A program made the position numbers and the translations under genes. The notes beneath the pieces were generated by a model. The model worked only from the letters and a program-made list of their open reading frames with translations, had not been told where the DNA came from and made no database searches. Below, piece by piece: positions 19,394 to 62,289 of a DNA stretch of 64,000 nucleotides (within the stretch, counting starts at the first letter, position 1; each line of letters begins with the position of its first letter). The stretch comes from a virus (taxonomy: Duplodnaviria; Caudoviricetes): IMG/VR virus record IMGVR_UViG_3300020048_000009, positions 64,001-128,000 of that record; one strand, 5' to 3'.

Positions 19394-19470
19394 GAGCTCG
19401 TAGAGGAAATGGTTAACTCATGTGGTTTTCATCCACAAGATTGCCGGTTCGAATCCGGTCGGGCTTACCA
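19394..19470 (+). tRNA. trnE: tRNA-Glu(TTC)
   Basis: Cloverleaf; TGTGG-TTTTCAT-CCACA; CCA. Confidence 0.92.
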
Positions 19471-19561
19471 TATAAGCATGACGACTAGACTAGCAATGCT
19501 TTCAGCTTATAGCTAAACTAGTGACACGGCGGAGAGCACGTCGGACAATTTTATAATTTAT

Positions 19562-19647
19562 GGATAGGTGCTCCTGAATGGTAAGGGGACGGTCTTGAAA
19601 ACCGTAGGCTAACCCCACTGCACGTTCGATTCGTGTCCTATCCTCCA
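19562..19647 (+). tRNA. trnS: tRNA-Ser(TGA)
   Basis: ACGGT-CTTGAAA-ACCGT; long V-arm; CCA. Confidence 0.9.
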
Positions 19648-19694
19648 ATTTGTGGCGCGTCACGGTGTGTGTATAAGTCGCTTCGATTTATTAT

Positions 19695-19772
19695 GGGGCC
19701 ATAACTCAGTCCGGCTAGAGTGTCTCCCTTGCACGGAGAAAGTCGGGGGTTCAAATCCCTCTGGCTCCACCA
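19695..19772 (+). tRNA. trnA: tRNA-Ala(TGC)
   Basis: G3:U70; TCTCC-CTTGCAC-GGAGA; CCA. Confidence 0.95.
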
Positions 19773-19776
19773 ATTT

Positions 19777-19868
19777 GGCTGCATTCCGGATGCAGTCGGA
19801 TCAATTCACCTGATGTACTAGAGCGAGTCAGGAATTATGAAACAGTAAAATTCTGTATCGGTCTGCCA
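19777..19868 (+). ncRNA. Structured RNA ending in CCA, not a cloverleaf
   Basis: GCTGCA/TGCAGT hairpin; CGGATC/GGTCTG; CCTGA/TCAGG; ACAG/CTGT. Confidence 0.4.
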
Positions 19869-19876
19869 ATTTATGT

Positions 19877-19952
19877 AGAACGTTCGCGTAGTGGTTAGCG
19901 CACTAGACTGTCGATCTGGATTTCACGGGTTCGATTCCCGTACGTTCTGCCA
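19877..19952 (+). tRNA. trnD: tRNA-Asp(GTC)
   Basis: CTAGA-CTGTCGA-TCTGG; G73; CCA. Confidence 0.92.
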
Positions 19953-19962
19953 TTTTAATTTA

Positions 19963-20039
19963 CGGAGTGTGGAGGCAATTGGCTGCCCACGTGCCTTGGA
20001 CGCATGGTTATGTCGGATCGTTCCCGACCACTCCGACCA
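19963..20039 (+). tRNA. trnP: tRNA-Pro(TGG)
   Basis: CGGAGTG/CACTCCG; CTTGGAC loop; atypical T-loop ATCGTTC. Confidence 0.9.
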
Positions 20040-20052
20040 ATTTTTCTAGAAA

Positions 20053-20127
20053 GCCAACTTGACTGAATGGTTAAGTACCTCATTTGTAATGAGACCCATA
20101 ACGGTTCGATCCCGTTAGTTGGCTCCA
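20053..20127 (+). tRNA. trnT: tRNA-Thr(TGT)
   Basis: GCCAACT/AGTTGGC; TTTGTAA loop; CCA. Confidence 0.9.
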
Positions 20128-20220
20128 TATTTTATATACGAAAGTAATATATTCTAAAACCGGTACTTTCTTTTCAAATATGTATACCGGCTTTAATAAA
20201 TAAAATTAAAGGAATATATT

Positions 20221-20946
20221 ATGAATACAGTAATTTGTCCAATATGTGGAAAAGAATACAAACAATTAATAGCACAACATATTTTTAAACACGGTTTGAC
20301 TATTGAAGAATTTAAACTTAAATTTCCAGATTTTTATTTAGGTAGTCCGGGTATTGAAAGTACTAGAAAAGAAAAAATGGTACTTCAATATGAAAAAGAT
20401 AATATACGATGTAAACATTGTAATAAATTAATAACATCACCAAATAGAAAACATAGAATCTTTTGTAGTACTTTATGTAAAGCTACTTATTATTCTTTTA
20501 ACAAAGAGCTTGTTCAAACAAAAGGAAAACATTTTAAAAAAATCTGTTGTGCATGTAATAAAGAATATAAAGCCTTTAGAGATAATTCTAAATTTTGTTC
20601 TAATAAATGTCAACAAGAATATATTAATGTTCAAAAAATTAAAGAATGGAAAGACGCCACAGAACAGGGAAAACCTTTTCCCTATAGAAAATGGATAAGA
20701 CATTATCTTTTTAAAAAATATGATAACAAATGCTGTAAATGTGGGTGGAGTAAGATTAATCCTTTTACAGGAAATGTTCCTTTAGAACTTGAACATATTG
20801 ATGGTAATTCAAATAACAATAAAGAAGAAAATTTAGAATTGTTATGTCCCTGTTGTCATGCCTTAACTTCCACATATAAGGGTGCAAATAGAGGTAATGG
20901 AAGATTCTCTAGAAGACAAAGATACCAAGAAGGTAAATCTTATTAA
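20221..20946 (+). mobile_element. HNH homing endonuclease with Zn-finger N-terminus
   Basis: CCKCG...LELEHIDGNSNNNKEENLELLCPCCH; ATAAATA upstream. Confidence 0.88.
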
Positions 20947-20957
20947 TAAAATTTAAT

Positions 20958-21031
20958 GCGTCTGTAGCTCAATGGTCGAGCCCGTCCTTGCCAAGGATGT
21001 TATACGAGTTCAATTCTCGTCAGATGCTCCA
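20958..21031 (+). tRNA. trnG: tRNA-Gly(GCC)
   Basis: TTGCCAA loop; U73; CCA. Confidence 0.92.
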
Positions 21032-21040
21032 ATTTAAAAT

Positions 21041-21115
21041 GTTTAATATGAGCTAATGGTAAGCTTCCAGGTTTAAAGACCCAGAGTATATAGGTTCAAC
21101 TCCTATTATTAGATA
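21041..21115 (+). pseudogene. Degenerate tRNA, anticodon unresolved (TAA or TTA register)
   Basis: D-arm and ATAGG-TTCAACT-CCTAT T-arm intact; anticodon stem mismatched; no CCA. Confidence 0.55.
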
Positions 21116-21120
21116 TTTAT

Positions 21121-21195
21121 GCGTTTGTAACTCAATTGGCAGAGTGCTGGGCTTCCAACCCGGATATACGGGATCATACCCCGTCAGATGCTCCA
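21121..21195 (+). tRNA. trnG: tRNA-Gly(TCC)
   Basis: CTGGG-CTTCCAA-CCCGG; T-loop ATCATAC. Confidence 0.88.
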
Positions 21196-21201
21196 TTTAA
21201 A

Positions 21202-21275
21202 GCGATGTTAGCAAAATGGTTATGCGGCGGTCTGCAAAACCGCTTACATGTGTTCAATTCACATACATTGCTCCA
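21202..21275 (+). tRNA. trnC: tRNA-Cys(GCA)
   Basis: GCGGT-CTGCAAA-ACCGC; U73. Confidence 0.92.
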
Positions 21276-21285
21276 TTTTATTTAT

Positions 21286-21361
21286 GCTCTCTTATTTCAG
21301 TGGCTAGAATGCTTCCTTTACACGGAAGAGGTCAGGAGTTCGAATCTCTTAGGGAGTACCA
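21286..21361 (+). tRNA. trnV: tRNA-Val(TAC)
   Basis: CTTCC-TTTACAC-GGAAG; CCA. Confidence 0.92.
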
Positions 21362-21367
21362 TTTTTT

Positions 21368-21444
21368 CGAAGTATAACTCAGTTGGTTAGAGTACCTGTC
21401 TGATACACAGAATGTCGGTGGTTCGAATCCATCTACTTCGACCA
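21368..21444 (+). tRNA. trnI: tRNA-Ile(GAT)
   Basis: CTGATAC loop; CGAAGTA/TACTTCG; CCA. Confidence 0.92.
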
Positions 21445-21451
21445 TTTTATT

Positions 21452-21535
21452 GGGACTGTGGCGTAATGGCAGACGCGCTGGTTTTAGACACCAGTGGAGA
21501 AATCCGTGAAGGTTCAAGTCCTTTCAGTCCCACCA
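21452..21535 (+). tRNA. trnL: tRNA-Leu(TAG)
   Basis: CTGGT-TTTAGAC-ACCAG; V-arm GGA-GAAA-TCC; A73. Confidence 0.92.
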
Positions 21536-21564
21536 GTTTTGTTTCATTAAAGCATATAATATCA

Positions 21565-21636
21565 GTGTATAAAAGCCAATGAATATACTACTATATTAAT
21601 ATCAATTACGCAATTGATACTGTTCTTTGAATAACA
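21565..21636 (+). promoter_or_regulatory. Promoter + hairpin + boxA-like site
   Basis: GTGTAT-N18-TACTAT; ATCAATT-acgc-AATTGAT; TGTTCTTTGAATAAC at 21621. Confidence 0.65.
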
Positions 21637-21646
21637 ATTTTTAAAT

Positions 21647-21735
21647 CGCAGGGTGGCGTAATTGGCAGCCGCAGCGGACTTAAAATCCGCTGGGTGGTAA
21701 CACCCGTGAGGGTTCGAGTCCCTCCCTTGCGACCA
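21647..21735 (+). tRNA. trnL: tRNA-Leu(TAA)
   Basis: GCGGA-CTTAAAA-TCCGC; long V-arm; CCA. Confidence 0.92.
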
Positions 21736-21994
21736 TTGATCCTTAGTTAGAAGATTGTGTTCTGTCAGCCCATCAAGATAGACGTTTGAGATCATGCCTC
21801 TTCTGGAACAAGTATATAAACTTTAAGCCTTTGAGCGGACAGGTTTATATTAAGTGAAATCCTTGATGGTCGGCGGTGTATTCCAGTCTTTTGTTTTAGT
21901 ATGATATTAATGTTTTCGTTACCTGACCGTTGGACTAAGTGCACTTCGTAAGAAGGCTCCAATCAATCAGCTTCTCCATTAACCAGCAGCATAT

Positions 21995-22071
21995 AGGCGT
22001 GTAGCTCAGCTGGTTAGAGCGGGATCCTTATAAGGTCTAGGTCGCTGGTTCAACTCCAGCCACGCCTACCA
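21995..22071 (+). tRNA. trnI: tRNA-Ile(TAT)
   Basis: GGATC-CTTATAA-GGTCT; AGGCGTG/CACGCCT; A73. Confidence 0.85.
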
Positions 22072-22088
22072 TTTTTTAGAAAGTAATT

Positions 22089-22238
22089 ATGCTTTATTAT
22101 TGGACAAGAGTTTATAATACAGGTGCTGCCCATTATTGGGAAGTAGAAAGTGAAGAAGCTTTACTTATCGCTGCAAAAGAAAAGTATGGTGAATCACTTT
22201 TTGATTATGGAATGACAACTCAAAAGAAAACAAAGTAA
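22089..22238 (+). CDS. 49-aa hypothetical protein
   Basis: Hand-translated ORF between tRNAs. Confidence 0.45.
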   Translation: MLYYWTRVYNTGAAHYWEVESEEALLIAAKEKYGESLFDYGMTTQKKTK

Positions 22239-22250
22239 ACAATTTTTAAT

Positions 22251-22332
22251 GGGAATGTATCTCCCCCGCCTTCTAAGCGGACGTTAAAAGAGTAATTGGA
22301 GTATGCAGGTTCGATCCCTGTCTTTCCCGCCA
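22251..22332 (+). ncRNA. Rearranged tRNA-Arg(TCT)-like RNA lacking a positional D-arm
   Basis: GGGAATG/CTTTCCC-G-CCA; CCGC-CTTCTAA-GCGG; GCAGG-TTCGATC-CCTGT. Confidence 0.7.
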
Positions 22333-22417
22333 TTTTAGCTAAGAGTAGTAAATATTTAATTTACTTATATATTTAAGCTGCGCTTTTAATAAATAAAATT
22401 AAGGGTATAACTTAAAT

Positions 22418-22924
22418 ATGAAAAATAAATGTCATAAATGTAATGTAGATATTCCAAACAGGGTTAAAATAGATAACTGTTGGAAAACAATTAACCATAG
22501 AAAATTTTGTTTAATCTGTTCACCGTGGGGTAAACATAATACTAAAAGCGTGGATCCTTCTAAAAGAACGCTTTCAGAAAAAGAAAGACATTCCTGGAAA
22601 AATTTAACAGATAAACAAAAAACATGTCATAAAACATCACAACATAAGAGAGCCGTTAAGCGTAAGGTTGAACTTATTAATATGCGAGGTGGGAAGTGTG
22701 AAAGATGTGGTTATGATAAATGTATTGATGTATTTCATTTTCATCATATAGATCCATCGTTAAAAACCATGAACATGGGATTAAATTCTCTATGGTGTAA
22801 ATCATGGGAAAAGATTTTACAGGAATTTGAAAATTGTAAAGTATATTGTTCTAATTGCCACATGGAAGTGCATTATGAATTAAAAAATCCTGATAATAAA
22901 CAATGTACTTTAATTTCAAAATAA
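22418..22924 (+). mobile_element. HNH homing endonuclease
   Basis: GGKCERCG...FHFHHIDP...CKVYCSNCHMEVH; ATAAATA upstream. Confidence 0.85.
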
Positions 22925-22936
22925 TATGATTAGCCA

Positions 22937-23007
22937 GTGTATAAAAAGAAGAGATTATCATATTATATATCTATCAAGTATGTACTTGAGCATGTTCTTT
23001 GACAATT
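22937..23007 (+). promoter_or_regulatory. Promoter + hairpin + boxA-like site
   Basis: GTGTAT-N18-TATTAT; TCAAGT-atgt-ACTTGA; TGTTCTTTGACAATT at 22993. Confidence 0.65.
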
Positions 23008-23029
23008 AATAGCAAATGATTTTTTTAAT

Positions 23030-23114
23030 GGAAGCGTGGCCGAACGGCTAGGCATCGGACTTTTAATCCGAGGGAGAAATCCTAACGCAGGTTCGACCCC
23101 TGTCGCTTCTACCA
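23030..23114 (+). tRNA. tRNA with Lys(TTT) anticodon on a class II long-V-arm body
   Basis: TCGGA-CTTTTAA-TCCGA; V-arm GGA-GAAA-TCC; 3-bp D-stem; A73. Confidence 0.85.
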
Positions 23115-23132
23115 TCTTTTTAGTTTTCAAAT

Positions 23133-23206
23133 TGTCCCATAGTGTAATGGCAGCACAGCACCCTTTGACGGTGTTTGTATTGGTTCAAGTCCAGTTGGGA
23201 CAACCA
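23133..23206 (+). tRNA. trnQ: tRNA-Gln(TTG)
   Basis: GCACC-CTTTGAC-GGTGT; T1:A72. Confidence 0.92.
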
Positions 23207-23208
23207 AT

Positions 23209-23282
23209 ATTCCCATGTTGTAAAGGATGCATGCGGCGCTACGAACGCTTCGGTTGGAGTTCGAATCTCTATGGGAATACCA
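23209..23282 (+). tRNA. trnR: tRNA-Arg(ACG)
   Basis: CTACGAA loop; ATTCCCA/TGGGAAT; CCA. Confidence 0.85.
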
Positions 23283-23287
23283 TTTTA

Positions 23288-23346
23288 AAGACGCAAACAG
23301 CAATTCAAATAAAAATTCACTGTTAATGAAAAAAAAAACGCGTCTT
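23288..23346 (+). ncRNA. Anticodon-stem-loop mimic (Asn GTT) in an AAGACGC/GCGTCTT stem
   Basis: TTCA-CTGTTAA-TGAA at 23316-23330. Confidence 0.5.
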
Positions 23347-23354
23347 GTTTTTAT

Positions 23355-23429
23355 AGTAGAGTAGGCAAGTGGTAATCCGCCTCCCTGTTAAGGAGGACAG
23401 CGCTGGTTCGATCCCAGCCTCTACTGCCA
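23355..23429 (+). tRNA. trnN: tRNA-Asn(GTT)
   Basis: CCTCC-CTGTTAA-GGAGG; G73. Confidence 0.92.
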
Positions 23430-23432
23430 CTT

Positions 23433-23555
23433 TGGGAACAGATGGTTAGCGCCATTTGGCATATTTATTCATGTAGTATGCCTAACCCATTTATATTTTT
23501 GATAAATAAAATAGAGGTTACGCTAAGAACCTCTTTAAAATAAAGGTAAAATAAT
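23433..23555 (+). ncRNA. Endonuclease-leader structured RNA, copy 2
   Basis: Loops TTAGCG (23446-23451) and CGCTAA (23521-23526). Confidence 0.7.
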
Positions 23556-24236
23556 ATGATTAATAAATTAGATGAATCATGGAAGCAAGTAAACGGTTTA
23601 TATAAATGTCCAATATGTAGTAAAGAGTATTCTAAAAAAGGAATTTGTTCGCATATCTTTAGATCACATACAAAAGACGGTAAATATAATTCTTTTAAAG
23701 ATAATAACAGATTATATACTTCATCGTGGAATAAAGGTTTAATAAAAGAAACAGATCTTAGAATCAAGAAATCTGGTGAGAAACTTAAAGAAAGTCTTAA
23801 CTCTGGTAAAGTAATACCACCACAAACAGGAAAACCTATTGCTCCTGAAATAAAAGCTAAAATATCCAATACGATGAAGATTGCTCATAAAGAAGGAAGA
23901 GCGTGGAATATTGGAAAGTCTAGATGGAATAACAAAGCTTCATATCCAGAAGAATTCTTTATGAAGGTTATTGAAAATGAATTTGAGGATAAGAATTATA
24001 TAAGAGAATTTAATGTTGGTATTTATTCTATAGATTTTGCATGGACCGATAAAAAGTTAGCTATAGAAATAGACGGACAACAGCATAAACGATTTGAAGA
24101 ATATAAACAGAGAGATCTTCGGAAAGATGAATGTTTATTAGAGAATGGATGGAAAGTTCTAAGAATTTTATGGATTGATATGTATAAGGATCCACACAAG
24201 TGGATTAAAATTGCTAAAGATTTTATACATAATTAA
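23556..24236 (+). mobile_element. Putative homing endonuclease, DUF559/Vsr-like nuclease with C2H2- and NUMOD-like N-terminus
   Basis: CPICSK..HIFRSH; YSIDFAWTDKKLAIEIDGQQH..RD..L..NGWKVLRI. Confidence 0.82.
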
Positions 24237-24249
24237 GAATTTTATTAAT

Positions 24250-24325
24250 GCGATTGTAGCTCAGTAGGCAGAGCGTCGGACTCTTAATCCGAAGCGCGTG
24301 GGATCATAGCCCTCCAGTCGTACCA
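24250..24325 (+). tRNA. trnK: tRNA-Lys(CTT)
   Basis: TCGGA-CTCTTAA-TCCGA; T-loop ATCATAG. Confidence 0.88.
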
Positions 24326-24363
24326 TTTTGATGTACAAGATCAGATAGACATGAGAATTTTAT

Positions 24364-24437
24364 TGCGCGGTTGAGGAGAGGCCCCTCTGCAGGCTCATAA
24401 CCTGCCTACGCCGGTTCGAATCCGGCCTGCGCAACCA
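24364..24437 (+). tRNA. trnM: tRNA-Met(CAT)
   Basis: GCAGG-CTCATAA-CCTGC; CCA; initiator vs elongator unresolved. Confidence 0.88.
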
Positions 24438-24446
24438 ATTTAACAA

Positions 24447-24597
24447 CACGGCGTGAGGAAAGAACTTGTTCTATGATTCTTAATTCGATTCTAGTAAGAT
24501 AGTACTGTCTGAACGAGGATGTTATTAAGCGGAGAACAGAAATCCTACCGGAAACATGTCCGGAAATCGCAGGTATCGAATCCTGTCGCCGTAACCA
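24447..24597 (+). ncRNA. 151-nt initiator-tRNA-like RNA with 83-nt D-loop insertion
   Basis: C1:A72 mismatch; AGGA/TCCT D-stem; CCGGA-AACATG-TCCGG; T-arm; A-CCA. Confidence 0.65.
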
Positions 24598-24603
24598 ATT
24601 TTA

Positions 24604-24679
24604 GGAGTTTTGTTGTAGATGGTTCGCAAAACGGTCTGAAAAACCGAAGGATAGGGTTCGATCCCCTGAAACTCCACCA
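24604..24679 (+). tRNA. trnF: tRNA-Phe(GAA)
   Basis: CTGAAAA loop; GGAGTTT/AAACTCC. Confidence 0.9.
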
Positions 24680-24690
24680 TTTTATTTTCT

Positions 24691-24778
24691 GGTAGTTTAT
24701 TCCGTAGGTAGTCTCGGGGCGCACTGTAAATGCGCTGGCTAATACCCTAAGGTAGTGCAACTCTATCAACTACCACCA
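24691..24778 (+). tRNA. trnY: tRNA-Tyr(GTA)
   Basis: GCGCA-CTGTAAA-TGCGC; long V-arm; T-loop TGCAACT. Confidence 0.88.
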
Positions 24779-24783
24779 GCTTT

Positions 24784-24920
24784 AAATAAGGACAGATGGT
24801 TAGCGCCATTTGGATGTTTTTCATATGACACGCCTAACTTATTTAATTATTTTTTCATATTTTTTGATAAATAAAATAGAGGTTACGCTAAGAACCTCTT
24901 AAAAATAAAGGTAAAATAAT
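24784..24920 (+). ncRNA. Endonuclease-leader structured RNA, copy 3
   Basis: AAATAAG/CTTATTT closing stem; loops TTAGCG and CGCTAA (24886-24891). Confidence 0.7.
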
Positions 24921-25457
24921 ATGAGTAAAAAATTAATTGATCGCATCGGTGCTGATAAAATCATTGAAGTCTGCAAATCTGCAAAAACATTTAAAGAAGC
25001 ATGTGAAAAACTTAACTGTGGTTATAGATATTTAATGACAGCAGCCGTTGAATTAAATGTTTTCGATGAGTTAAAGTCTAGATCTAAAGAATTTGCACAT
25101 AAATTTAAAAAGGCTGATGGTTCAAGATTATGGTTGATTAAAACTAATACGGGACAAGGCTTTACATCATACAGAACTGATACTAAAATTTGGTGTGAAG
25201 AACTTTTTAAAGGAAATCATACATCAACCGCTGTTAGAATTAAAACACATTTAATTAATGCTGGGTATAAAGAAGATCATTGTGAATGCTGTGGTATTAA
25301 TGAATGGAACAATAAGCCAATAAGTTTACAATTACATCATATAGATGGAAATTCTAGAAACAATCAGTTAGATAATTTAAAAATTCTTTGTCCTAATTGT
25401 CACGTTCAAACAGATAATTATGGTTCTAAGAATGCTCGAAATAAAGAGCGCGAGTAA
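24921..25457 (+). mobile_element. HNH homing endonuclease
   Basis: CECCG...LQLHHIDGNSRNNQLDNLKILCPNCH. Confidence 0.88.
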
Positions 25458-25473
25458 AGATTCCACCATTTTA

Positions 25474-25545
25474 GGGCAGCATGAAGGTACAAGCTCTACC
25501 TATAACTTAGGTACCTGGTGAGTTCAATTCTCATCCTGTCCACCA
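25474..25545 (+). pseudogene. Degenerate tRNA-like RNA with CCA
   Basis: GGGCAG/CTGTCC; GTGAG-TTCAATT-CTCAT; non-canonical D and anticodon regions. Confidence 0.55.
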
Positions 25546-25551
25546 TTTTAT

Positions 25552-25628
25552 GTAGCAGTAATTCAAGAGATAGAAATGCTGGGGTAATTCCTGGCGTGTT
25601 GTTGGTAAAAATCCAGCCTGCTACACCA
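25552..25628 (+). pseudogene. Degenerate tRNA-like RNA with CCA
   Basis: Perfect GTAGCAG/CTGCTAC-A-CCA; T-loop TAAAAAT; no valid anticodon loop. Confidence 0.55.
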
Positions 25629-25630
25629 CT

Positions 25631-26064
25631 TTCAGTTGTAATTCAAGCCATGTCCGATAGGGTACTTCTATATGAGCGCGCCCTATTTGTAAAGAATGAG
25701 ATAGACGAGAGTCGGCCGTAAGAGAATCCTCTGCAGGGGTTCAAAGACTAAAGACTCAGGAGGAACGTGTTACGTGAAATCCTCATTGACAAAGATCCCT
25801 AATGAACGGGAATGATAGTAAGTTAGTAAGAGAGATATTTGTGATTATGCCTTTAGTGTAACGGTTAGCACGTGGGATAATTCCCTTAGATCGGTTCGAC
25901 TCCGCAGGAAAAAACAAATCACATACAGAACCTTGTGAAATCCTTATATGGTACCTATCCAACTGAGCCATTCCAAGAATCCCCAGAGACGGTGTAGTAG
26001 GGATATACGAAGCAACACATTCATAGGCCTATCGGTGTTGTTGTAGATAGGACAAGACCGTTTC
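25631..26064 (+). ncRNA. Large structured RNA (about 430 nt) with embedded tRNA-like domain and 3' pseudoknots
   Basis: TTCAGTTG/CAACTGAG; GATAGGGTAC/GTACCTATC; GAGACGG/CCGTTTC; CCTATC/GATAGG; GCAACAC/GTGTTGT. Confidence 0.65.
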
Positions 26065-26069
26065 ATTTT

Positions 26070-26206
26070 TATACTGAGTAATGTAGAGAATTGGCAAATC
26101 AGCGGGCCAGTAGGCAAGTCTTAGAGATGCTGAAATCCGGCGGAATAACATTAGCTGGTAAGAGGTTATTCATTTATGGGTTCGAGTCCCATCATTATTC
26201 AGTGTA
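26070..26206 (+). ncRNA. tRNA-like RNA on a 14-bp closing stem with expanded anticodon region, no CCA
   Basis: CTGAGTAATG/CATTATTCAG; AATTGG D-loop-like; ATGGG-TTCGAGT-CCCAT. Confidence 0.55.
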
Positions 26207-26237
26207 TTTCTTTTTAAATTTAGTTATAATATAATTT

Positions 26238-26546
26238 ATGAAAACCAACAAATTTGTTTTTGAAATCAGTGTTGAAGGCCCAGGTTATAATGAAGAAAAT
26301 GTAGAAGAACTTTATGGTGAAGGTGCCATGTATAATCCAGATTTTTCAGAACACTCTGTAGTCATGGATGAGGTCTATGAAATCTTTAAGGATGCATTAA
26401 TGCAGCGAATGGAATTTAAAATGAATGCATTAATTAAACCTGTTCCAAATGAAGCAGCACAAAAAGCTTATCTAACTCATGTTGATGCAGCAATTGAGCT
26501 TTATAGAAAAGTTCAAGGAAGTTTAAAATTCGTTAGAAAAGAATAA
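26238..26546 (+). CDS. Hypothetical protein
   Basis: Behind GTGTAT-N17-TATAAT promoter at 26202. Confidence 0.65.
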   Translation: MKTNKFVFEISVEGPGYNEENVEELYGEGAMYNPDFSEHSVVMDEVYEIFKDALMQRMEFKMNALIKPVPNEAAQKAYLTHVDAAIELYRKVQGSLKFVRKE

Positions 26547-26552
26547 TTTATG

Positions 26553-26684
26553 GGGGTTGTTGGCTGAATAGGCATAAGCAGGGCACAAGAGGCCTGACAA
26601 AGCATAAAGGCATGTAGAAAACCGGCCGGGAATATTCTATATGTACTGTGCAGCGTGGAGGTTCGATTCCTTCCAGCCCCACCA
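26553..26684 (+). ncRNA. 132-nt tRNA-like RNA with giant variable arm
   Basis: GGGGTTG/CAGCCCC-A-CCA; class II D-arm; CATGTAGAA/TTCTATATG helix; GGAGG-TTCGATT-CCTTC. Confidence 0.65.
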
Positions 26685-26690
26685 ATTTAT

Positions 26691-26765
26691 ATAGCAGTAG
26701 TTCAATTGGCAGAATGGCGATCTCCAAAAGCGATGAAGTGGGTTCGATTCCTGCACATCCTGCCA
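26691..26765 (+). pseudogene. Degenerate tRNA-Trp(CCA)
   Basis: CTCCAAA loop, D and T arms present; acceptor strands ATAGCAG/ACATCCT do not pair. Confidence 0.6.
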
Positions 26766-26770
26766 TTTAT

Positions 26771-26849
26771 GGTAGTATTAGCTTAGTCTGGCCTAAAGCT
26801 ACGGACCGTGACTCCGTGATCGTGGGTTCGAATCCCATATACTTCCCCA
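26771..26849 (+). tRNA. trnH: tRNA-His(GTG)
   Basis: G-1:C73; ACGGA-CCGTGAC-TCCGT (C33). Confidence 0.85.
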
Positions 26850-26855
26850 AAATTA

Positions 26856-26922
26856 ATTCATAATTCGATCCCACTATTTGATAAATAAAATAAATATCAA
26901 ATAGTGGGATCGAATTATGAAT
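26856..26922 (+). repeat. Perfect 28-bp inverted repeat enclosing a late promoter and burying the next ATG
   Basis: ATTCATAATTCGATCCCACTATTTGATA / TATCAAATAGTGGGATCGAATTATGAAT. Confidence 0.9.
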
Positions 26923-27858
26923 ACTTTATTAATAAGACATTGTGAAAATTGTGGAATAGAACATGATGGAACATATGGATCTGGAAGATTTTGTTCTAAA
27001 GAATGCGCTAGAAGTTTTTCTTCTAAATTAAATACAAACATACGAAATGAAAAAATTTCAAAAACATTAAAAAATAAACATATTAGAGAAACTATATGTA
27101 AAAAATGTGGAACTATTGTATATACAAAGGGTTCTAGTCCAAATGTATGTTGTGACAAATGTAGACAAAAAAGAAAAAGCAATACCCCCTATTGTAATAG
27201 ATGTGGTGCCGAACGTGGAAAATGTAAATATCCATCTTTATGTAAAAAAAAGTTAAAATTATTTGATGGATTAGAAAAATATTTTGGATTTGATAAAACA
27301 AGTTTTGGGTCGAAAAGATATTATGAAGAAATCTTTAGAATAAAAGCAATGATAGAAGAAGATTATTATGAAAATAATAACTCAACAGTTGAATTATGTA
27401 AAAAATATAATCATACAGCATGTGGTAGTTTTATAAGAATACTAAAAAGCATTGATATTGTATTAAGAAATTTAAAAGAATCTTCATTACTGGCATATAA
27501 AACTGGTAGATCTGTTATATCAATAGATAATAGTACTCAATATAAACATGGGTGGCATACTGCATGGGATAACACACAAATATTTTATAGATCTTCATAT
27601 GAACTTGATTATGCTGAAAAATTAGATGAGCAAAAAGTAAAATATGACGTCGAAGCTTTAAGAATATCTTATTTTGATACTCAAAAATGTATAGAAAGAA
27701 CGGCAATTCCTGATTTTTATCTTCCTGAAACTAATACTATAGTTGAAATAAAATCTTCATGGACATATAATGAACAGAATATGAATGATAAAATTAAAGC
27801 TTATAAGAAGCATGGTTATAATTTTAAACTAATTTTAGATCATAAGGAAGTTGTTTAA
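26917..27858 (+). mobile_element. Putative homing endonuclease, TnsA-like PD-(D/E)xK domain with Zn-finger N-terminus
   Basis: CENCG..GSGRFCSKEC; FYRSSYELDYA...PDFYLPETNTIVEIKS. Confidence 0.75.
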
Positions 27859-28547: not shown

Positions 28548-28551
28548 CATT

Positions 28552-28983: not shown

Positions 28984-28989
28984 TTTAAT

Positions 28990-57419: not shown

Positions 57420-57971
57420 ATGATTAGAAATATTATATTTATAGATGTAGATGGTGTTTTAAATAATACTAAATGCCCTAATACTTGCACATATAGTTTT
57501 AAATTACAAAACTGTCCATGTAAACCTGAGTATGGAATTCAAGAAGTATTTAAAAATAGATTTATTAATTTAATAAAAGCCTGTCCGGAAAATACAGAAT
57601 TTGTTTTAATTTCTAGTTGGAGACTTCAAACTAGATTATTGAATACTTTTAAAGAAACCTTTAAAGAACTATCTAATAAGTATTGGGGATGTCTAGAGTT
57701 TACTTGGGATGAAGTACATAGAGAAACTTCTATATCTCAATGGATTGCTAAAAATATAGAAACATGGACAGACTATTTTATGGGTGGAGAACTTGTTTAT
57801 CCAACTGATAATAAATGTAATTATGTTGTTTTAGATGATCGAAAGTATAATTTAATAAATAGACATAATCCTAATATTAAAGGTTTAAAAATAGATGTTG
57901 TTTCTAATATCGGATTAAGTGATGAAGATTGTAATGCGGCTAAACTATTCTTAGAAGCAAATGCATCATAA
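57420..57971 (+). CDS. HAD-family phosphatase, RNA-repair (Swiss-Army-Knife) type
   Basis: IFIDVDGVLN, VLISSWR, YVVLDD, GLSDED. Confidence 0.78.
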   Translation: MIRNIIFIDVDGVLNNTKCPNTCTYSFKLQNCPCKPEYGIQEVFKNRFINLIKACPENTEFVLISSWRLQTRLLNTFKETFKELSNKYWGCLEFTWDEVHRETSISQWIAKNIETWTDYFMGGELVYPTDNKCNYVVLDDRKYNLINRHNPNIKGLKIDVVSNIGLSDEDCNAAKLFLEANAS

Positions 57972-58989: not shown

Positions 58990-59129
58990 TATGGGTATTC
59001 TAATAGGAATTGGTATTGGAATAATGGCACAACTGGTAGCAGTTGGTTTAGATTTATGTACAATACGAATTAGACTCACTGAAATACGAGATTTACTTAA
59101 AGAAAACAAATAAAAAAGGAAAAAATAAA

Positions 59130-59495
59130 ATGCTAATATCATTATTCGAATTACGTAAAAAAGTAAATGATCAATATGATTATCTTATTAAAACACAAGG
59201 TGACATAGCCAAGAATATTGAAAAGTGTTATGTTGCTAAAATTCAGGAAAAAGCTGCAAATAATTGGTTTTATAGAACATTTACTGATTATAACAATAAA
59301 ATTTATATGGCTTGTATTTATTGTAACTATTCTAAGGATACGCTCTATAAGAAAATAGATAAAATGAAAGCCCAAATAAATAAACTATATCAAGAGTTTT
59401 ATTATACAGGTAGCAACTATACGGATAAAGAGCAGAAGAAAATGTTTATTCGTTTAACAGATGAAGAAGCTGCTGTTTTAGATTATAAGGTATAA
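59130..59495 (+). CDS. Hypothetical protein
   Basis: AAGGA RBS. Confidence 0.6.
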   Translation: MLISLFELRKKVNDQYDYLIKTQGDIAKNIEKCYVAKIQEKAANNWFYRTFTDYNNKIYMACIYCNYSKDTLYKKIDKMKAQINKLYQEFYYTGSNYTDKEQKKMFIRLTDEEAAVLDYKV

Positions 59496-60482
59496 ATGAG
59501 TATTAAAGTATTATATACAGGTAGTTTTAATCCCTTCCATAATGGTCACCAATATGTTTATGATATTGCTTGTAAATGTTTTGGTAAAGAAAATGTATGG
59601 ATTGGGATTGGCCAAAACTCTGAAAAAGCTACATCTAATCTTAATAATTTAGCTTTTAGTGTTCGTCCTATTACTAAAAATATTATTACTTATACTGGTT
59701 TAACTGCAAAGGTTCTAAGAGAACATAATTTTGATTTAATTGTTAGAGGTGTTAGACCTGGTAGATCACTAGAAGATGAAAATGATTTACTATATTGGAA
59801 TCGTAAGTTAAGCGGCGGTATAGAGACTATACTTATTCCTACGCCACCAGAGGTCAACCAGATTTCATCTGGTGCCATTAGAATATTGGATGCTAATAAT
59901 GCAACAGTTCTTCCTTATATGAACGAAATAGTTTATTATCGTTGGAAGGATAATACAGATCCTTATGCTAAAAAAATTCCAGTATATTTTGGAAAATGTT
60001 GTTCTGGTAAATCTACACATTTAATGGACCATGTTGCTAGATCATGGGATAATATTGTTTTAGATATGGATAAAACTCTTTTAACCTATCATAATAGAGC
60101 AGACGATCCAAATTTTAATATGGCCGAATTAAAAGAAGATATTAAGAAAATTTTTTATTCTAAAAATGTAAAAGCATTTTATGAGGAAATTGTTGATTTG
60201 GGACATGATATAAATTGGGAAAAATTATTTGGTGTTATTACAGAAATAGAAAAAAATAACTGTAAACCTTTGTTTGATATGCCAAATATTGGTTCATATT
60301 ATAATTGTATTCCTAAAAAATTATTAGGTCGTTTTAAATTTGTTAAGGTTTCGACTTCAGAAGAAAATAGAAAATATTTTGCAGAGCTTAGAAAGGTTAA
60401 TCCGTTATTATTAGAATGTAATGATTTAATGTATGTGGATATGCCATTCTGGGATGAAGAAATAGTTATAGAAAGAAAGTAA
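59496..60482 (+). CDS. HIGH-family nucleotidyltransferase (CoaD/NadM-like) fused to a P-loop kinase-like domain
   Basis: YTGSFNPFHNGH, VRGVR, ISSGAIR; GKCCSGKST. Confidence 0.8.
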   Translation: MSIKVLYTGSFNPFHNGHQYVYDIACKCFGKENVWIGIGQNSEKATSNLNNLAFSVRPITKNIITYTGLTAKVLREHNFDLIVRGVRPGRSLEDENDLLYWNRKLSGGIETILIPTPPEVNQISSGAIRILDANNATVLPYMNEIVYYRWKDNTDPYAKKIPVYFGKCCSGKSTHLMDHVARSWDNIVLDMDKTLLTYHNRADDPNFNMAELKEDIKKIFYSKNVKAFYEEIVDLGHDINWEKLFGVITEIEKNNCKPLFDMPNIGSYYNCIPKKLLGRFKFVKVSTSEENRKYFAELRKVNPLLLECNDLMYVDMPFWDEEIVIERK

Positions 60483-60483
60483 T

Positions 60484-61521
60484 ATGAATTTACAAGAACT
60501 AAAAGATGATGCGGTAGATTTTGCTAAAGAACCTGATGAAAAAGTAAGAGAGTTGCTACTTGGTGGTGTTGAAAGAGGTGTGGCGATTGTTGAAAAATTA
60601 CTAAATTATATTAAGAATGATGGATATACTTTAGATAAATGTGGTCATTATTTAAGTGGTATTAACCCCAAAGATGATGAAGAGTTTATTTGTGCAATGG
60701 TTTATGGCGTAATGGGGGGATCGGACCGTGACTATAAAAATTTAGCAGATAATGATGTTGTTATATTTTCTAATATATATCAGTCTGCTTGTTGGAATTG
60801 TGCTGAGAGCGGGTTTTCATTAAAAGTAGATAAAATACAAAAAACAATATCATTGGTTTCATGTAATTATGATAGAACCGCCCCACTTGGTTCTTGTAAA
60901 AAAATAATTAAAGATACCGTATGTAAATATAAAGATGGTCGTCCACCATATAGTATTAGATTAAACATTTCATCGGGTGTAATGTTATTTGCTAATCATT
61001 TTAAACGTTTATTTGATTTTACAGAATTACCAGAATTTAAAGGTAGAGCATATTCTAATGAATTTTGTATTAATTATTTTGAAGGTAGAAAACGCAGTAC
61101 AGAAGAATATGCTAAATTAGGATTAGGCGAATTTAATATTGGTAACTGTGGATGTAATATGTATAAGAAATCTGATGAAGAGTTTTTCGTCGGATATGAT
61201 TATACAGAATATGACGATGATGAAGCAAATAATAAGCCTAATGTTTTTGATAATACTAAAGTTGTCGGAAATGTTTGTACAGACTTCTGGGGCTTTTGTG
61301 TTATAGATAAAGATACATATGAAGCCAAGGTAGGAAAAGACGATTTAACTAAAAGGAAAAAAGAGAATAATATAACATATCTTGATTCTAAAATATTAGA
61401 TGATACTATTAATGCTATTAAATGTACGCCTGGAATTTATGAATTTACTCATTACTATCATCTGTTAAAAGATGGTGATCCTAATGTTTATACAACAATT
61501 AAATTAGTGGAGAAAATTTAA
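60484..61521 (+). CDS. Hypothetical protein
   Basis: Long ORF. Confidence 0.75.
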   Translation: MNLQELKDDAVDFAKEPDEKVRELLLGGVERGVAIVEKLLNYIKNDGYTLDKCGHYLSGINPKDDEEFICAMVYGVMGGSDRDYKNLADNDVVIFSNIYQSACWNCAESGFSLKVDKIQKTISLVSCNYDRTAPLGSCKKIIKDTVCKYKDGRPPYSIRLNISSGVMLFANHFKRLFDFTELPEFKGRAYSNEFCINYFEGRKRSTEEYAKLGLGEFNIGNCGCNMYKKSDEEFFVGYDYTEYDDDEANNKPNVFDNTKVVGNVCTDFWGFCVIDKDTYEAKVGKDDLTKRKKENNITYLDSKILDDTINAIKCTPGIYEFTHYYHLLKDGDPNVYTTIKLVEKI

Positions 61522-61971
61522 ATGGATAATATAGTAAAAACAGATGCAGAAGCTTGGAATTTTCTAATTGAAATGGGCGGTGAATTTAGAATTCATACTA
61601 ATAGGGACGGATTAAGGGTTTATATTTGTATTTGTGATAGAAAATATAGTGGATATTGTAAAGCATTTGAATACCGATGGGATTTATCTAAACCAATAGA
61701 TAAAAATGCTTTAAGCGGAAGACCTGCATATATTAATAAGAAAGCTATTAAAGAACTTACTACAGGTTATAATGGAACACATACGGGTAAAACATTAACC
61801 GAGGCGGTTAATAAACATATTATTGATATGCCTGGAGATGTTCATATTAAAGCTGATGATGAATTAGATATTAAAGACTATTTATGTAAAGATAAATGTT
61901 GTGTTAGATGGACTTTAGAATTTAAAGGTTCTGAAGAAGAATTTAAAAAATTAAGTCTTACTGATGAATAA
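61522..61971 (+). CDS. Hypothetical protein
   Basis: Coupled ORF. Confidence 0.65.
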   Translation: MDNIVKTDAEAWNFLIEMGGEFRIHTNRDGLRVYICICDRKYSGYCKAFEYRWDLSKPIDKNALSGRPAYINKKAIKELTTGYNGTHTGKTLTEAVNKHIIDMPGDVHIKADDELDIKDYLCKDKCCVRWTLEFKGSEEEFKKLSLTDE

Positions 61972-62016
61972 TATAGTGTATTCTTTTTCATAATAAGAGT
62001 ATTATTGTTTTACTTT

Positions 62017-62217
62017 ATGAATGCAAGTGAAACAAAACATCGATATAAATTACTTAGAGCCCAAAAAAGAAGAGAAAAGAATAAGGTTCGTAATAATAGA
62101 ATTAAACCACGTTATCGTCGGTGTGATAATTGTGGTGGTTCAGAGCAATGGTGTTCTTGTTGTAAGATGTGGACCAAAACATGTTGTGTTGATTATGGGA
62201 CATGTATGTGTAGTTAA
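62017..62217 (+). CDS. Small basic Cys-rich protein
   Basis: CDNCG..WCSCC..CC..GTCMC. Confidence 0.6.
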   Translation: MNASETKHRYKLLRAQKRREKNKVRNNRIKPRYRRCDNCGGSEQWCSCCKMWTKTCCVDYGTCMCS

Positions 62218-62225
62218 TTTTTAAT

Positions 62226-62289
62226 GGGTATGTAACTCAATTGGTAGAGTCATTGTGTATTGCAGGTTCGACCCCTGTCATATCCATCA
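62226..62289 (+). ncRNA. tRNA-like RNA lacking the anticodon arm
   Basis: GGGTATG/CATATCC; ACTC-AATTGGTA-GAGT; GCAGG-TTCGACC-CCTGT; only 11 nt between D and T arms; ends ATCA. Confidence 0.65.

What the first reader, a model, noticed from the sequence alone, without database searches (positions are those of the whole stretch)
19394..62289. Possible integrated tRNA decoy and repair system
Seen: 24 cloverleaf tRNAs, about ten non-canonical tRNA-like RNAs that mostly keep the acceptor, T-arm or CCA while altering the anticodon region, plus an Rnl2-type ligase (50293), an RNA-repair-type HAD phosphatase (57420) and an S4-like protein (37543). Established: hosts deploy anticodon nucleases (PrrC, and tRNA-cleaving effectors of PARIS and some retrons), and phages counter them with RNA healing and sealing enzymes and variant tRNAs. 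Inference: the aberrant RNAs are a selected arsenal of decoys or sensor antagonists rather than decay products.
Basis: inference. Interest (0 to 1): 0.68.

Follow-up and report, generated by a model that had tools for sequence, protein, structure and literature searches.

The report
Unorthodox tRNAs in a jumbo phage
A giant lake-water phage carries, beside 24 ordinary tRNA genes, ten tRNA-shaped genes of unusual build: at least one is a working-looking tRNA with a rewired fold, one is half of a conserved RNA-plus-mini-protein pair, and nothing ties them to the phage's RNA-repair genes as one decoy-and-repair machine.

Summary
ARAGORN finds 24 tRNAs (19394-29081, + strand), and I catalogued ten further tRNA-shaped elements (A-J). 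The Rnl2-type ligase and the SAK-type HAD phosphatase are real; the S4 hit is marginal.

- A (Arg-UCU) and C (Tyr-GUA) keep textbook anticodon loops and are the phage's only carriers of those anticodons. AGA makes up 58% of Arg codons.
- A belongs to a covarying class of phage tRNAs in which the D stem closes around the anticodon arm. This scan noted that class earlier on an Acinetobacter phage.
- I is a decayed tRNA-Trp.
- B, D, E, G and H keep only the acceptor/T-arm half and lack any anticodon-nuclease target. I could not test their conservation because no close relative was reachable.
- J (62226-62289) is a different thing: an anticodon-arm-less RNA with alanine identity marks (G3:U70, A73), placed 6-10 nt from a small basic Cys-rich ORF in seven phage lineages. 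I found no description of this pair.

The repair genes are the known, scattered jumbo-phage toolkit; RtcB, a CCA-adding enzyme and a Ro60-like gene lie elsewhere in the genome. They are not syntenic with the odd RNAs. The decoy idea remains untested.

The parts
19394..29081 (+). tRNA operon: 24 ARAGORN tRNAs covering 18 amino acids (no Tyr, no Trp), interrupted by five free-standing endonuclease genes
22251..22332 (+). A: 82-nt tRNA-Arg(UCU) with a rewired D arm. The 3-bp D stem (CUC/GAG) closes around the anticodon arm and the UAAUUGG 'D loop' follows it. Loop CUUCUAA, G73-CCA
   Evidence: CM R1 94 bits against <=35 bits for cloverleaf tRNAs; covariation in A8
24447..24597 (+). B: initiator-like tRNA-shaped RNA (C1xA72, A73-CCA) with an 83-nt hairpin in the D loop, a 6-nt CAU-containing loop and an 8-nt T loop
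24691..24778 (+). C: class-II tRNA-Tyr(GUA) candidate. 7/7 acceptor, loop CUGUAAA, A73-CCA, odd T loop UGCAACU, G:U-rich D stem. Called by ARAGORN only at a relaxed threshold
25474..25545 (+). D: acceptor (6/7), T arm and A73-CCA; no D arm; one hairpin with a 5-nt loop
   Evidence: z -2.5
25552..25628 (+). E: cloverleaf-shaped. 7/7 acceptor, A73-CCA, 9-bp hairpin with a tetraloop where the anticodon arm should be, T loop UAAAAAU, D loop without GG
   Evidence: z -3.1; 25 bits
25845..25915 (+). F: tRNA-like D arm and a 6-nt-loop hairpin embedded in a larger repeated ncRNA; poor acceptor stem
26077..26203 (+). G: 127-nt RNA with a long terminal stem and a canonical T arm (UUCGAGU); no CCA
   Evidence: (tRNA 23.5 bits)
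26553..26684 (+). H: 132-nt tRNA-shaped RNA. 7/7 acceptor, 3-bp D arm, canonical T arm, A73-CCA, about 60-nt extra arm, no usable anticodon loop
   Evidence: (tmRNA model only 18.7 bits)
26691..26765 (+). I: tRNA-Trp-derived (loop CUCCAAA, G73-CCA; 73-79% identical to phage tRNA-Trp), but acceptor paired 3/7 and anticodon stem 3/5: probable pseudogene
62017..62217 (+). 66-aa basic plus Cys-rich protein (CxxCGG..WC..C...C..YGTCxCS-stop), partner gene of J
   Evidence: no Pfam or PHROG family; AF2 pLDDT 72
62226..62289 (+). J: 64-nt tRNA-shaped RNA with no anticodon arm (11-nt linker); G1-C72, G2-C71, G3:U70, A73; 3' UCA rather than CCA
   Evidence: (41 bits)
50293..51198 (+). Rnl2-type RNA ligase
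57420..57971 (+). Stand-alone HAD phosphatase of the 'Swiss army knife' RNA-repair family (DVDGV motif)
37543..37794 (+). 83-aa protein with a marginal S4-domain hit; no link to the rest was found
20221..20946 (+). HNH homing endonuclease inside the tRNA operon. Others at 22418-22924 (HNH), 23556-24236 (DUF559/Vsr-like), 24921-25457 (HNH) and 26917-27858 (endonuclease)

Best explanation
This is three separate things, not one system.

(1) The tRNA operon, 19394-29081. It belongs to a freshwater jumbo phage of at least 212 kb and is broken up by five homing-endonuclease genes.
- Shown: 24 callable tRNAs plus nine more tRNA-shaped genes lie on one strand.
- Inferred: the operon is transcribed as long precursors, RNase P cuts at each acceptor stem, and the encoded CCA sets the 3' ends.
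- A (Arg-UCU) and C (Tyr-GUA) are most likely working decoders for codons that dominate phage genes. A belongs to a conserved non-cloverleaf class in which a 3-bp D stem encloses the anticodon arm and a GG-bearing loop follows it. That loop could still reach the T loop.
- I is a decayed tRNA-Trp, probably a by-product of endonuclease-driven recombination.
- B, D, E, G and H keep only the acceptor/T-arm 'minihelix' half. They would be matured like tRNAs and accumulate as stable small RNAs, like T4 species 1 and 2. My best guess is that they work through that half, either as processing punctuation for the ORF messages embedded in the operon or as ligands for enzymes that read acceptor ends. They are unlikely to be anticodon-nuclease decoys, because they lack the target.

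(2) The J module. J is half of an independent, conserved two-gene module with a 66-aa basic, Cys-rich protein. Its G1-C72, G2-C71, G3:U70 and A73 predict charging by host AlaRS once a CCA end has been made. The protein probably binds the RNA.

(3) The repair genes. The Rnl2-type ligase and the SAK-type HAD phosphatase belong to the known, scattered jumbo-phage RNA-repair toolkit, together with RtcB, a CCA-adding enzyme and a Ro60-like gene elsewhere in the genome. They probably heal and seal cleaved tRNAs in general.
For: Catalogue and non-randomness.

Decoder argument. The 24 tRNAs lack Tyr, Trp and Arg-UCU. AGA is 20.6 per 1000 codons (58% of Arg), TAT 45 per 1000 and TGG 11.7 per 1000.

Rewired class.
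- A pattern scan that specified only the 3' part returned three further genes. All have the same 5' layout, 7/7 acceptor stems, canonical loops and CCA.
- CM R1 then found three more in loci fetched for unrelated reasons, at 58-78 bits; cloverleaf tRNAs score <=35 bits.
- In A8, 98.5% of cells are paired and 14 of 19 pairs change on both sides. The rewired helix reads CUC/GAG, ACC/GGU or CAC/GUG.

J family and module.
- 13, then 72, distinct anticodon-arm-less RNAs were found. The acceptor stem was not in the search pattern, yet all 7 of its pairs covary.
- The Cys-rich ORF lies 6-10 nt from the RNA in seven contigs. One of these was found through the protein alone.
- 6 of those 7 carry the alanine identity set, against 13 of 72 overall.

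Repair genes: and PMC7824862. Lack of linkage.
Against: - There are no expression, processing or charging data.
- No close relative of this phage could be fetched, so selection on B, C, D, E, G and H is untested. Only their intact stems and modest folding z-scores (-1.6 to -3.1; G about 0) speak for them.
- A has a U6xU67 mismatch and only 4 bp in its anticodon stem.
- C is missed by Rfam and has G55 in its T loop.
- Alignment A8 was fitted to the model, which favours the model's structure.
- One ORF-linked J-type RNA (L286) lacks G3:U70, and CCA is not conserved in the family.
- The T4 species 1/2 comparison rests on my own knowledge; the papers were not in the library.
Confidence: 0.62

Rival explanations
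1. One reading: the aberrant RNAs are a selected arsenal of decoys or sensor antagonists against host tRNA-directed immunity, working together with the ligase, the phosphatase and the S4 protein as one system.
For: - Host systems that cut anticodon loops, anticodon stems or CCA tails exist, and phage tRNAs do counter them (PMC10264068 and PMC11555353; PMC12445682; PMC12851939).
- Seven odd RNAs keep an acceptor stem, a T arm and CCA. That half is what a tail-cutting or tail-modifying effector would read.
- The genome does carry several RNA-repair genes.
Against: - A and C are the sole carriers of needed anticodons.
- The anticodon-less RNAs have nothing for an anticodon nuclease to cut.
- There is no synteny or phyletic link between the ligase, the HAD gene and the odd RNAs.
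- No kinase was found.
- The S4 hit is marginal.
- J travels with its own partner protein, not with repair genes.
Confidence: 0.12
2. The odd elements are mostly decaying or rearranged tRNA pseudogenes, produced by homing-endonuclease traffic in the operon and evolving neutrally.
For: - Five endonuclease genes interrupt the array.
- I has clearly broken stems.
- G and F lack CCA and a good acceptor end.
- No sequence relatives of B, C, D, E, G or H turned up in 3.5 Mb of other large-phage DNA.
Against: - A and J belong to families with strong covariation.
- C, E and H have perfect 7-bp acceptor stems, B and D pair at 6 of 7, and all five have perfect 5-bp T stems plus CCA, while their loops deviate. 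That is the signature of kept structure.
- E folds unaided into a full cloverleaf shape (z -3.1).
Confidence: 0.12
3. The anticodon-less tRNA shapes are chiefly RNA-processing punctuation. They act as RNase P and 3'-end sites that cut embedded ORF messages free and stabilise them, like the t-elements of plant mitochondria.
For: They abut ORFs.
- D starts 16 nt after the stop of the HNH gene.
- H starts 6 nt after the stop of ORF 26238-26546.
- G ends 34 nt before that ORF.
- J starts 8 nt after its ORF and ends 22 nt before the next ATG.
- The 6-10 nt spacing of J-type RNAs from their ORF holds in seven lineages.
t-elements are an established precedent (PMC1920247, listed).
Against: - Punctuation alone does not need an encoded CCA.
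- It does not need the alanine identity set kept in 6 of 7 J-type RNAs.
- It does not explain why the gene order flips (RNA before the ORF in L018 and L228) while the spacing is kept.
Confidence: 0.25

Closest known systems
T4 tRNA gene cluster with its two stable RNAs of unknown function (species 1 / RNA C and species 2 / RNA D); from my own knowledge, papers not held in the library
   Same: A phage tRNA operon that also encodes RNAs of about 120-140 nt with an acceptor-like terminal stem and a CCA end, matured by the tRNA-processing machinery. This resembles H, B, D and E.
   Different: This phage has more such RNAs, of diverse architecture. I found no sequence similarity, and homology was not tested.
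Phage tRNAs that evade tRNA-targeting defences (T5 and others: PMC10264068, PMC11555353; OLD-resistant tRNA-Thr, PMC12445682)
   Same: Phage-encoded decoders whose departures from host tRNAs can confer nuclease resistance. A's shortened anticodon stem recalls the OLD-resistant tRNAs.
   Different: The published variants are cloverleaf tRNAs with changes in the anticodon loop or stem. In A the whole D arm is rewired. Resistance is untested here.
Rewired phage tRNA-Arg(UCU) noted earlier in this scan on an Acinetobacter phage (e1-4040528)
   Same: No D arm in the normal place, a perfect UCU anticodon hairpin, and an intact acceptor stem, T arm and CCA, recurring in other phages.
   Different: That note calls the fold a pseudoknot. 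On my seven sequences the covarying helix is nested (the D stem encloses the anticodon arm). The class also carries UAU and GAU anticodons.
tmRNA tRNA-like domain with SmpB
   Same: An alanine-identity tRNA mimic (G3:U70, A73) that lacks an anticodon arm and works with a small basic partner protein. J plus its Cys-rich protein has the same outline.
   Different: J has no mRNA-like domain and no pseudoknots. The partner shows no SmpB similarity and is 66 aa with 10 cysteines (8-10 across the family). The Rfam tmRNA model does not hit J. H, which it hits weakly (18.7 bits against a cut-off of 47), has G3-C70.
Jumbo-phage RNA-repair toolkit (Iyer et al. 2021, PMC7824862) and T4 Pnk + Rnl1/Rnl2
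   Same: Rnl2, SAK-type HAD phosphatase, RtcB, NADAR, a TROVE/Ro60-like protein and many tRNAs in one genome.
   Different: No polynucleotide kinase was detected, and the genes are dispersed over more than 130 kb.
Bacterial Y RNAs of the YrlA type with Ro60 (PMC4201824)
   Same: tRNA-like D and T arms without an anticodon.
   Different: YrlA has a long Ro-binding helix in place of the anticodon arm. None of A-J shows it, and the Ro60-like gene lies about 40 kb upstream of the window.

Membership tests
Canonical tRNA (Rfam RF00005 cloverleaf) | 7-bp acceptor stem, D arm at positions 10-25, anticodon arm with a 7-nt loop, T arm, and N73 (CCA) | tested here: not met
   Taken together, A-J fail. 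A lacks a D arm in place. B has a 6-nt loop and an 83-nt insert. D has no D arm. E has a tetraloop hairpin. H has no usable loop. I has its acceptor paired 3/7. J has no anticodon arm. Only C approximates a class-II cloverleaf. Rfam bits: J 41, A 25.6, I 24.4, G 23.5; the others are unreported.
Rewired-D-arm phage tRNA class (element A) | U8-A9 followed by a 3-nt strand, then the anticodon arm directly, a linker, the complementary 3-nt strand, UAAU(U)GG, and then a normal T arm, acceptor and CCA | tested here: met
   A scores 94 bits on R1. Seven distinct members were found. The helix covaries as CUC/GAG, ACC/GGU and CAC/GUG.
Rewired-D-arm phage tRNA class (element A) | Functions as a decoder (charged and used on the ribosome) | not testable with these tools
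   Support is indirect: canonical CU-NNN-AA type loops in all members, and A is the only UCU carrier in a genome where AGA is the main Arg codon.
Anticodon-arm-less tRNA-Ala-like RNA plus Cys-rich mini-protein module (J) | Acceptor, D arm, 8-13-nt linker, T arm; a partner ORF ending YG(T/S)CxCS within 10 nt | tested here: met
   Found in the window, L104, L126, L222, L286, L018 and L228. In A6, 100% of cells are paired and 10 of 16 pairs change on both sides.
Anticodon-arm-less tRNA-Ala-like RNA plus Cys-rich mini-protein module (J) | AlaRS identity set: G1-C72, G2-C71, G3:U70, A73 | tested here: met
   J has all four. 6 of 7 ORF-linked members have them, against 13 of 72 in the unselected family. 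Actual charging is untested.
T4 Rnl2-type RNA ligase | Nucleotidyltransferase motif I (KxHG) and an Rnl2-type C-terminal domain | tested here: met
   PF09414 at 43 bits. K26, H28 and G29 are at least 90% conserved in 35 homologues. The alignment to 2hvq runs to residue 270 of 301.
SAK-type HAD RNA-repair phosphatase (PF18143) | HAD motif I (DxDx[TV]) and a family HMM score above the cut-off | tested here: met
   48.3 bits against a cut-off of 27.5; D9-V-D11-G-V. The substrate is untested.
T4-type tRNA healing-and-sealing pathway (Pnk + Rnl) | A 5'-kinase that partners the phosphatase and the ligase | tested here: not met
   PF13671 gives no match in the 211,678-bp record, which is estimated 84% complete. 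RtcB, which needs no healing step, is present at genome 156445-157509.
tmRNA | G3:U70 tRNA-like domain, pseudoknots, and a tag reading frame | tested here: not met
   H scores 18.7 bits against a cut-off of 47 and has G3-C70. J has G3:U70 but is only 64 nt.
Operon-like 'integrated' system (ligase + HAD + S4 + odd RNAs) | Conserved neighbourhood or co-occurrence of the parts | tested here: not met
   Within 10 kb of 80 ligase homologues there is no HAD, ATPase or other window neighbour. tRNA proximity is no more than chance.

The most novel reading that the evidence does not exclude
J and its Cys-rich mini-protein form a phage-specific ribonucleoprotein: an alanine-chargeable tRNA mimic without an anticodon arm, whose small basic zinc-type partner stands in for the missing arm, much as SmpB does for tmRNA. 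The particle would act either on the ribosome or on host enzymes and defence effectors that read tRNA acceptor ends. In parallel, D, E and H would be selected minihelix-type mimics aimed at the same acceptor-end readers.
Probability: 0.2. Interest if true: 0.85.

Novelty: new variant of a known kind. Interest (0 to 1): 0.6.

Why it matters
Phage tRNA genes are now read as counter-defence as well as codon supply, but annotation pipelines only see cloverleaves. This window shows three things such pipelines miss.
- A covarying class of non-cloverleaf phage tRNAs, carrying Arg-UCU, Ile-UAU and Ile-GAU anticodons, which challenges the assumption that the D arm must sit in its usual place.
- A widespread family of tRNA shapes without an anticodon arm: at least 72 distinct examples from one narrow pattern.
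- A subfamily with alanine identity marks that is tied to a previously unnamed mini-protein.
Each gives a direct bench test: charging, RNase P cutting, protein-RNA binding, and protection assays. The window also cautions against reading every tRNA-related gene in a jumbo phage as one system.

Tried and rejected
Searches for close relatives, all of which failed:
- megablast against GenBank phages;
- single-protein scans of IMG/VR with three window proteins;
- a metagenome scan with ORF 22418-22924, which proved to be a mobile HNH gene with hits of 51% identity or less;
- BLAST of 21900-27000 against five whole phage records, which matched only canonical tRNAs and A;
- the 3' 28-mer of H against genome contigs;

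Other dead ends:
- blastn of all ten elements against the fetched loci matched only A, I and J.
- Aligning H with other long tRNA-like RNAs showed no homology.
- H as a tmRNA was rejected: G3-C70 and a score well below threshold.
- HAD tblastn against GenBank phages gave no match.
- The S4 protein against PDB gave nothing.
- The Cys-rich protein has no Pfam, PHROG or Atlas family and does not occur in bacterial genomes.
- A tRNA/ligase proximity test was not significant.
- T4 RNA C/D papers could not be retrieved.

Full report
**Setting.** The window is bases 64001-128000 of a single 211,678-bp virus record that CheckV estimates to be 84% complete. GC content is about 30-37%. Earlier notes of this scan describe it as a freshwater jumbo phage. 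GenBank holds no near relative. The best ligase match there is 49% identical, in a 485-kb uncultured phage.

**Checking the observation.** ARAGORN calls exactly 24 tRNAs, all on the + strand, between 19394 and 29081. A 25th, an amber suppressor, lies outside the window. Rfam's tRNA model hits 23 of the 24. The 24 cover 18 amino acids; Tyr, Trp and an Arg-UCU species are missing.

To find the "about ten non-canonical" RNAs I combined three approaches:
- Rfam in E-value mode;
- relaxed ARAGORN;
- my own scan for a 5-bp T stem with a TTCRA loop followed by a 7-nt strand complementary to a strand 45-170 nt upstream.

This gives ten elements, A to J (coordinates are listed under parts). All are on the + strand. 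Nine lie inside the tRNA operon. Seven end in N73-CCA, as do 23 of the 24 tRNAs. Shuffled sequence yields only loose hits, and the loose hits in the real sequence outside the array lack both TTCRA and CCA. Across the whole genome, the only other convincing tRNA shapes are J and the suppressor tRNA. The RNAs are therefore real and not chance.

- The ligase hits PF09414 and aligns to T4 Rnl2 into its C-terminal domain. The motif I lysine, histidine and glycine are at least 90% conserved in 35 homologues.
- The phosphatase hits PF18143 and has the DxDxV motif.
- The S4 hit is marginal, at 24.6 bits against a cut-off of 22.8, and has no other support.

**What the ten RNAs are.** They are not one kind of thing.

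*A (22251-22332).* A has a 7-nt loop, CUUCUAA, with anticodon UCU. It has a canonical T arm and G73-CCA, but no D arm where one is expected. After U8-A9 comes UCUC, then the anticodon arm directly, a short linker, then GAG-UAAUUGG, and then the T arm.
- A pattern that specified only this 3' part returned three more genes from IMG/VR. Their unspecified 5' parts show the same layout, with 7/7 acceptor stems, canonical loops and CCA.
- A covariance model built from these four scores them at 90-99 bits and ordinary tRNAs at 35 bits or less.
- The model then found three further members (58-78 bits) in loci I had fetched for unrelated reasons.
- Across the seven, 98.5% of cells pair and 14 of 19 pairs change on both sides. 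The unusual helix itself covaries: CUC/GAG, ACC/GGU, CAC/GUG. The caveat is that this alignment was fitted to the model.
- Anticodons in the class are UCU, UAU and GAU.
- In this phage AGA makes up 58% of arginine codons, and A is the only UCU carrier.

I conclude that A is a working decoder of an unorthodox, conserved architecture. This scan had noted a similar tRNA-Arg(UCU) on an Acinetobacter phage (e1-4040528). My data agree on the class but show a nested helix rather than a pseudoknotted one.

*C (24691-24778).* C has a perfect acceptor stem, the loop CUGUAAA (Tyr-GUA), a long variable region as in bacterial tRNA-Tyr, and A73-CCA. Its D stem is rich in G:U pairs and its T loop is odd, UGCAACU. 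It is the only Tyr candidate for a genome that uses TAT at 45 per 1000 codons. It is probably a working tRNA, but I have no relatives to show it.

*I (26691-26765).* I is 73-79% identical to phage tRNA-Trp genes and keeps the loop CUCCAAA and G73-CCA. Its acceptor stem pairs at only 3 of 7 positions and its anticodon stem at 3 of 5. It looks like a pseudogene.

*B, D, E, G and H.* These keep the acceptor/T-arm half. C, E and H have perfect 7-bp acceptor stems; B and D pair at 6 of 7. All have perfect T stems, and B, D, E and H also carry CCA. None has a usable anticodon loop:
- B has a 6-nt loop plus an 83-nt hairpin in the D loop.
- D has a hairpin with a 5-nt loop.
- E has a 9-bp hairpin with a tetraloop.
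- H is a 132-nt RNA with an extra arm of about 60 nt.

Their folds are modestly more stable than shuffles: z is -2.3, -2.5, -3.1 and -1.6 for B, D, E and H, and about 0 for G. F is a tRNA-like fragment inside a larger repeated RNA that another reader noted. I found no sequence relatives of these elements in 3.5 Mb of other large-phage DNA. No close relative of the phage was reachable (see Tried and rejected).

*J (62226-62289).* J is a different thing, 33 kb away from the operon. It has a 7/7 acceptor stem, a normal D arm, an 11-nt linker in place of the anticodon arm and variable loop, and a normal T arm.
- One pattern scan found 13 such RNAs in IMG/VR, and a broader one found 72 distinct, well-paired examples.
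- The acceptor stem was not part of either pattern, yet all seven of its pairs covary.
- In seven contigs from large phages, the RNA lies 6-10 nt from a 61-72-aa ORF with a basic N-terminal helix and an invariant Cys-rich tail that ends YG(T/S)CxCS-stop. One of these contigs (L222) was found through the protein alone, and its RNA has a different linker.
- The ORF precedes the RNA in five contigs and follows it in two.
- Six of the seven RNAs carry G1-C72, G2-C71, G3:U70 and A73, against 13 of 72 in the unselected family. This is the established identity set for alanyl-tRNA synthetase, which does not read the anticodon (identity rules reviewed in PMC9976931, listed; I did not read that paper here).
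- CCA is not conserved in the family. The phage does encode a CCA-adding-type enzyme.
- The protein has no Pfam, PHROG or Atlas family and is absent from the bacterial genome collection.
- An AlphaFold model shows a long helix followed by small hairpins, at pLDDT 72.
- I found no published description in the searches I ran.

**The repair genes.** Besides the Rnl2-type ligase and the HAD phosphatase, the genome encodes RtcB at 156445-157509 and a CCA-adding-family enzyme at 32078-32437. By earlier notes it also encodes a Ro60-like protein and a Pth2-like gene. No AAA_33-type kinase was found.

The HAD gene's neighbours are a DenV-like glycosylase, a NADAR protein and a NadR-like nucleotidyltransferase. 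Around 80 ligase homologues of 44-52% identity from IMG/VR, none of the window's neighbouring genes recurs. About one locus in eight has a tRNA array within 10 kb. A tRNA or tRNA-like gene lies within 1 kb in 9 of 80 loci, against 6.6 +/- 1.9 for random windows in the same loci.

Iyer et al. 2021 already describe this same scattered set for jumbo phages: tRNAs, RtcB, Rnl1/2, SAK-type HAD, NADAR, and TROVE with a tRNA-like partner (PMC7824862). The repair theme is real and known. The "integration" is not supported.

**How it most likely works.**
- Shown: the gene content, the architectures, the covariation for A and J, the codon usage and the lack of synteny.
- Inferred: the operon is transcribed in long precursors. 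RNase P and 3' trimming release every acceptor-stem-bearing unit.
- A and C then supply AGA and UAU/UAC decoding. Their unusual bodies might also escape host nucleases, as published phage tRNAs do through smaller changes (PMC10264068, PMC12445682). That is speculation.
- B, D, E and H would accumulate as stable CCA-ended RNAs, like T4 species 1 and 2 (my own knowledge).
- These RNAs start 6-16 nt after ORF stops or end shortly before ORF starts. A role as processing punctuation is therefore plausible, but it does not explain the CCA ends.
- They lack the anticodon stem-loop that PrrC, RloC, PARIS, retron-Eco7 and OLD cut. If they are decoys at all, they must be aimed at readers of the acceptor end, such as tail-cutting Cas12a3 (PMC12851939). 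Nothing here tests that.
- J is predicted to be alanylated and bound by its partner protein. Its purpose is unknown.

Noticed in passing
window 23030-23114: tRNA-Lys(UUU) has a class-II-like body: a Ser/Leu-type D arm and a 15-nt variable arm. Its acceptor stem resembles that of the phage tRNA-Ser (28990-29081), and its T arm is identical to J's. A Lys anticodon on such a body is unusual and may bear on tRNA-Lys-directed defences.
   Followed up: no
window 19963-20039, 21121-21195, 24250-24325: Three ARAGORN tRNAs (Pro-UGG, Gly-UCC, Lys-CUU) have T loops that begin AUC instead of UUC. Rfam misses the Pro gene altogether.
   Followed up: no
window 21041-21117: The 'tRNA-Phe(AAA)' counted among the 24 has no CCA, an AT-only acceptor stem and an anticodon stem paired at 3 of 5 positions. 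It may be an eleventh aberrant element.
   Followed up: partly
window 26607-26615 versus 26754-26760: The interior of H contains AGG(C)AUGU, which is complementary, with one bulge, to the orphan 3' acceptor strand of I. This may be chance, or H and I may fold together.
   Followed up: no
window 26856-26922: A near-perfect 27-bp palindrome with GATAAATAAA in its loop lies between tRNA-His and the endonuclease gene that starts at 26917. It hits only unrelated miRNA hairpin models.
   Followed up: no
L021:9700-9863, L024:9048-9151, L026:9162-9280, L041:7673-7836, L061:4271-4544: In one lineage of IMG/VR phages, one or two long tRNA-shaped RNAs (100-163 nt, with a good acceptor stem and T arm, no CCA) sit 140-950 nt upstream of the Rnl2-type ligase gene on the same strand.
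   Followed up: partly
L018:12727-12830: After the Cys-rich ORF comes a T arm plus a 3' acceptor strand. This is followed, 7 nt later, by the complementary 5' strand and a D arm. The order looks like a circularly permuted tRNA-like gene.
   Followed up: no
L153:10720-10891: Two rewired-D-arm tRNAs (anticodons GAU and UAU) stand in tandem 10 nt apart, next to an HNH endonuclease homologue. Both end in CAA rather than CCA.
   Followed up: partly
L063:9225-9324 and 12491-12561: Two more CCA-ended tRNA-shaped RNAs without anticodon loops lie in a 395-kb phage. One is just upstream of its Rnl2 gene. The other directly follows tRNA-Trp and has a Trp-like acceptor stem.
   Followed up: no
genome 32078-32437 and 156445-157509 (outside the window): A CCA-adding/poly(A) polymerase family gene (435-aa frame) and an RtcB ligase (397-aa frame) are present. 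No AAA_33 kinase was found.
   Followed up: partly
window 56424-61521: The genes around the HAD phosphatase are a DenV-like pyrimidine-dimer glycosylase, a NADAR protein and a NadR-like cytidylyltransferase-fold protein. This looks like a mixed DNA-repair/NAD island rather than an RNA-repair operon.
   Followed up: partly
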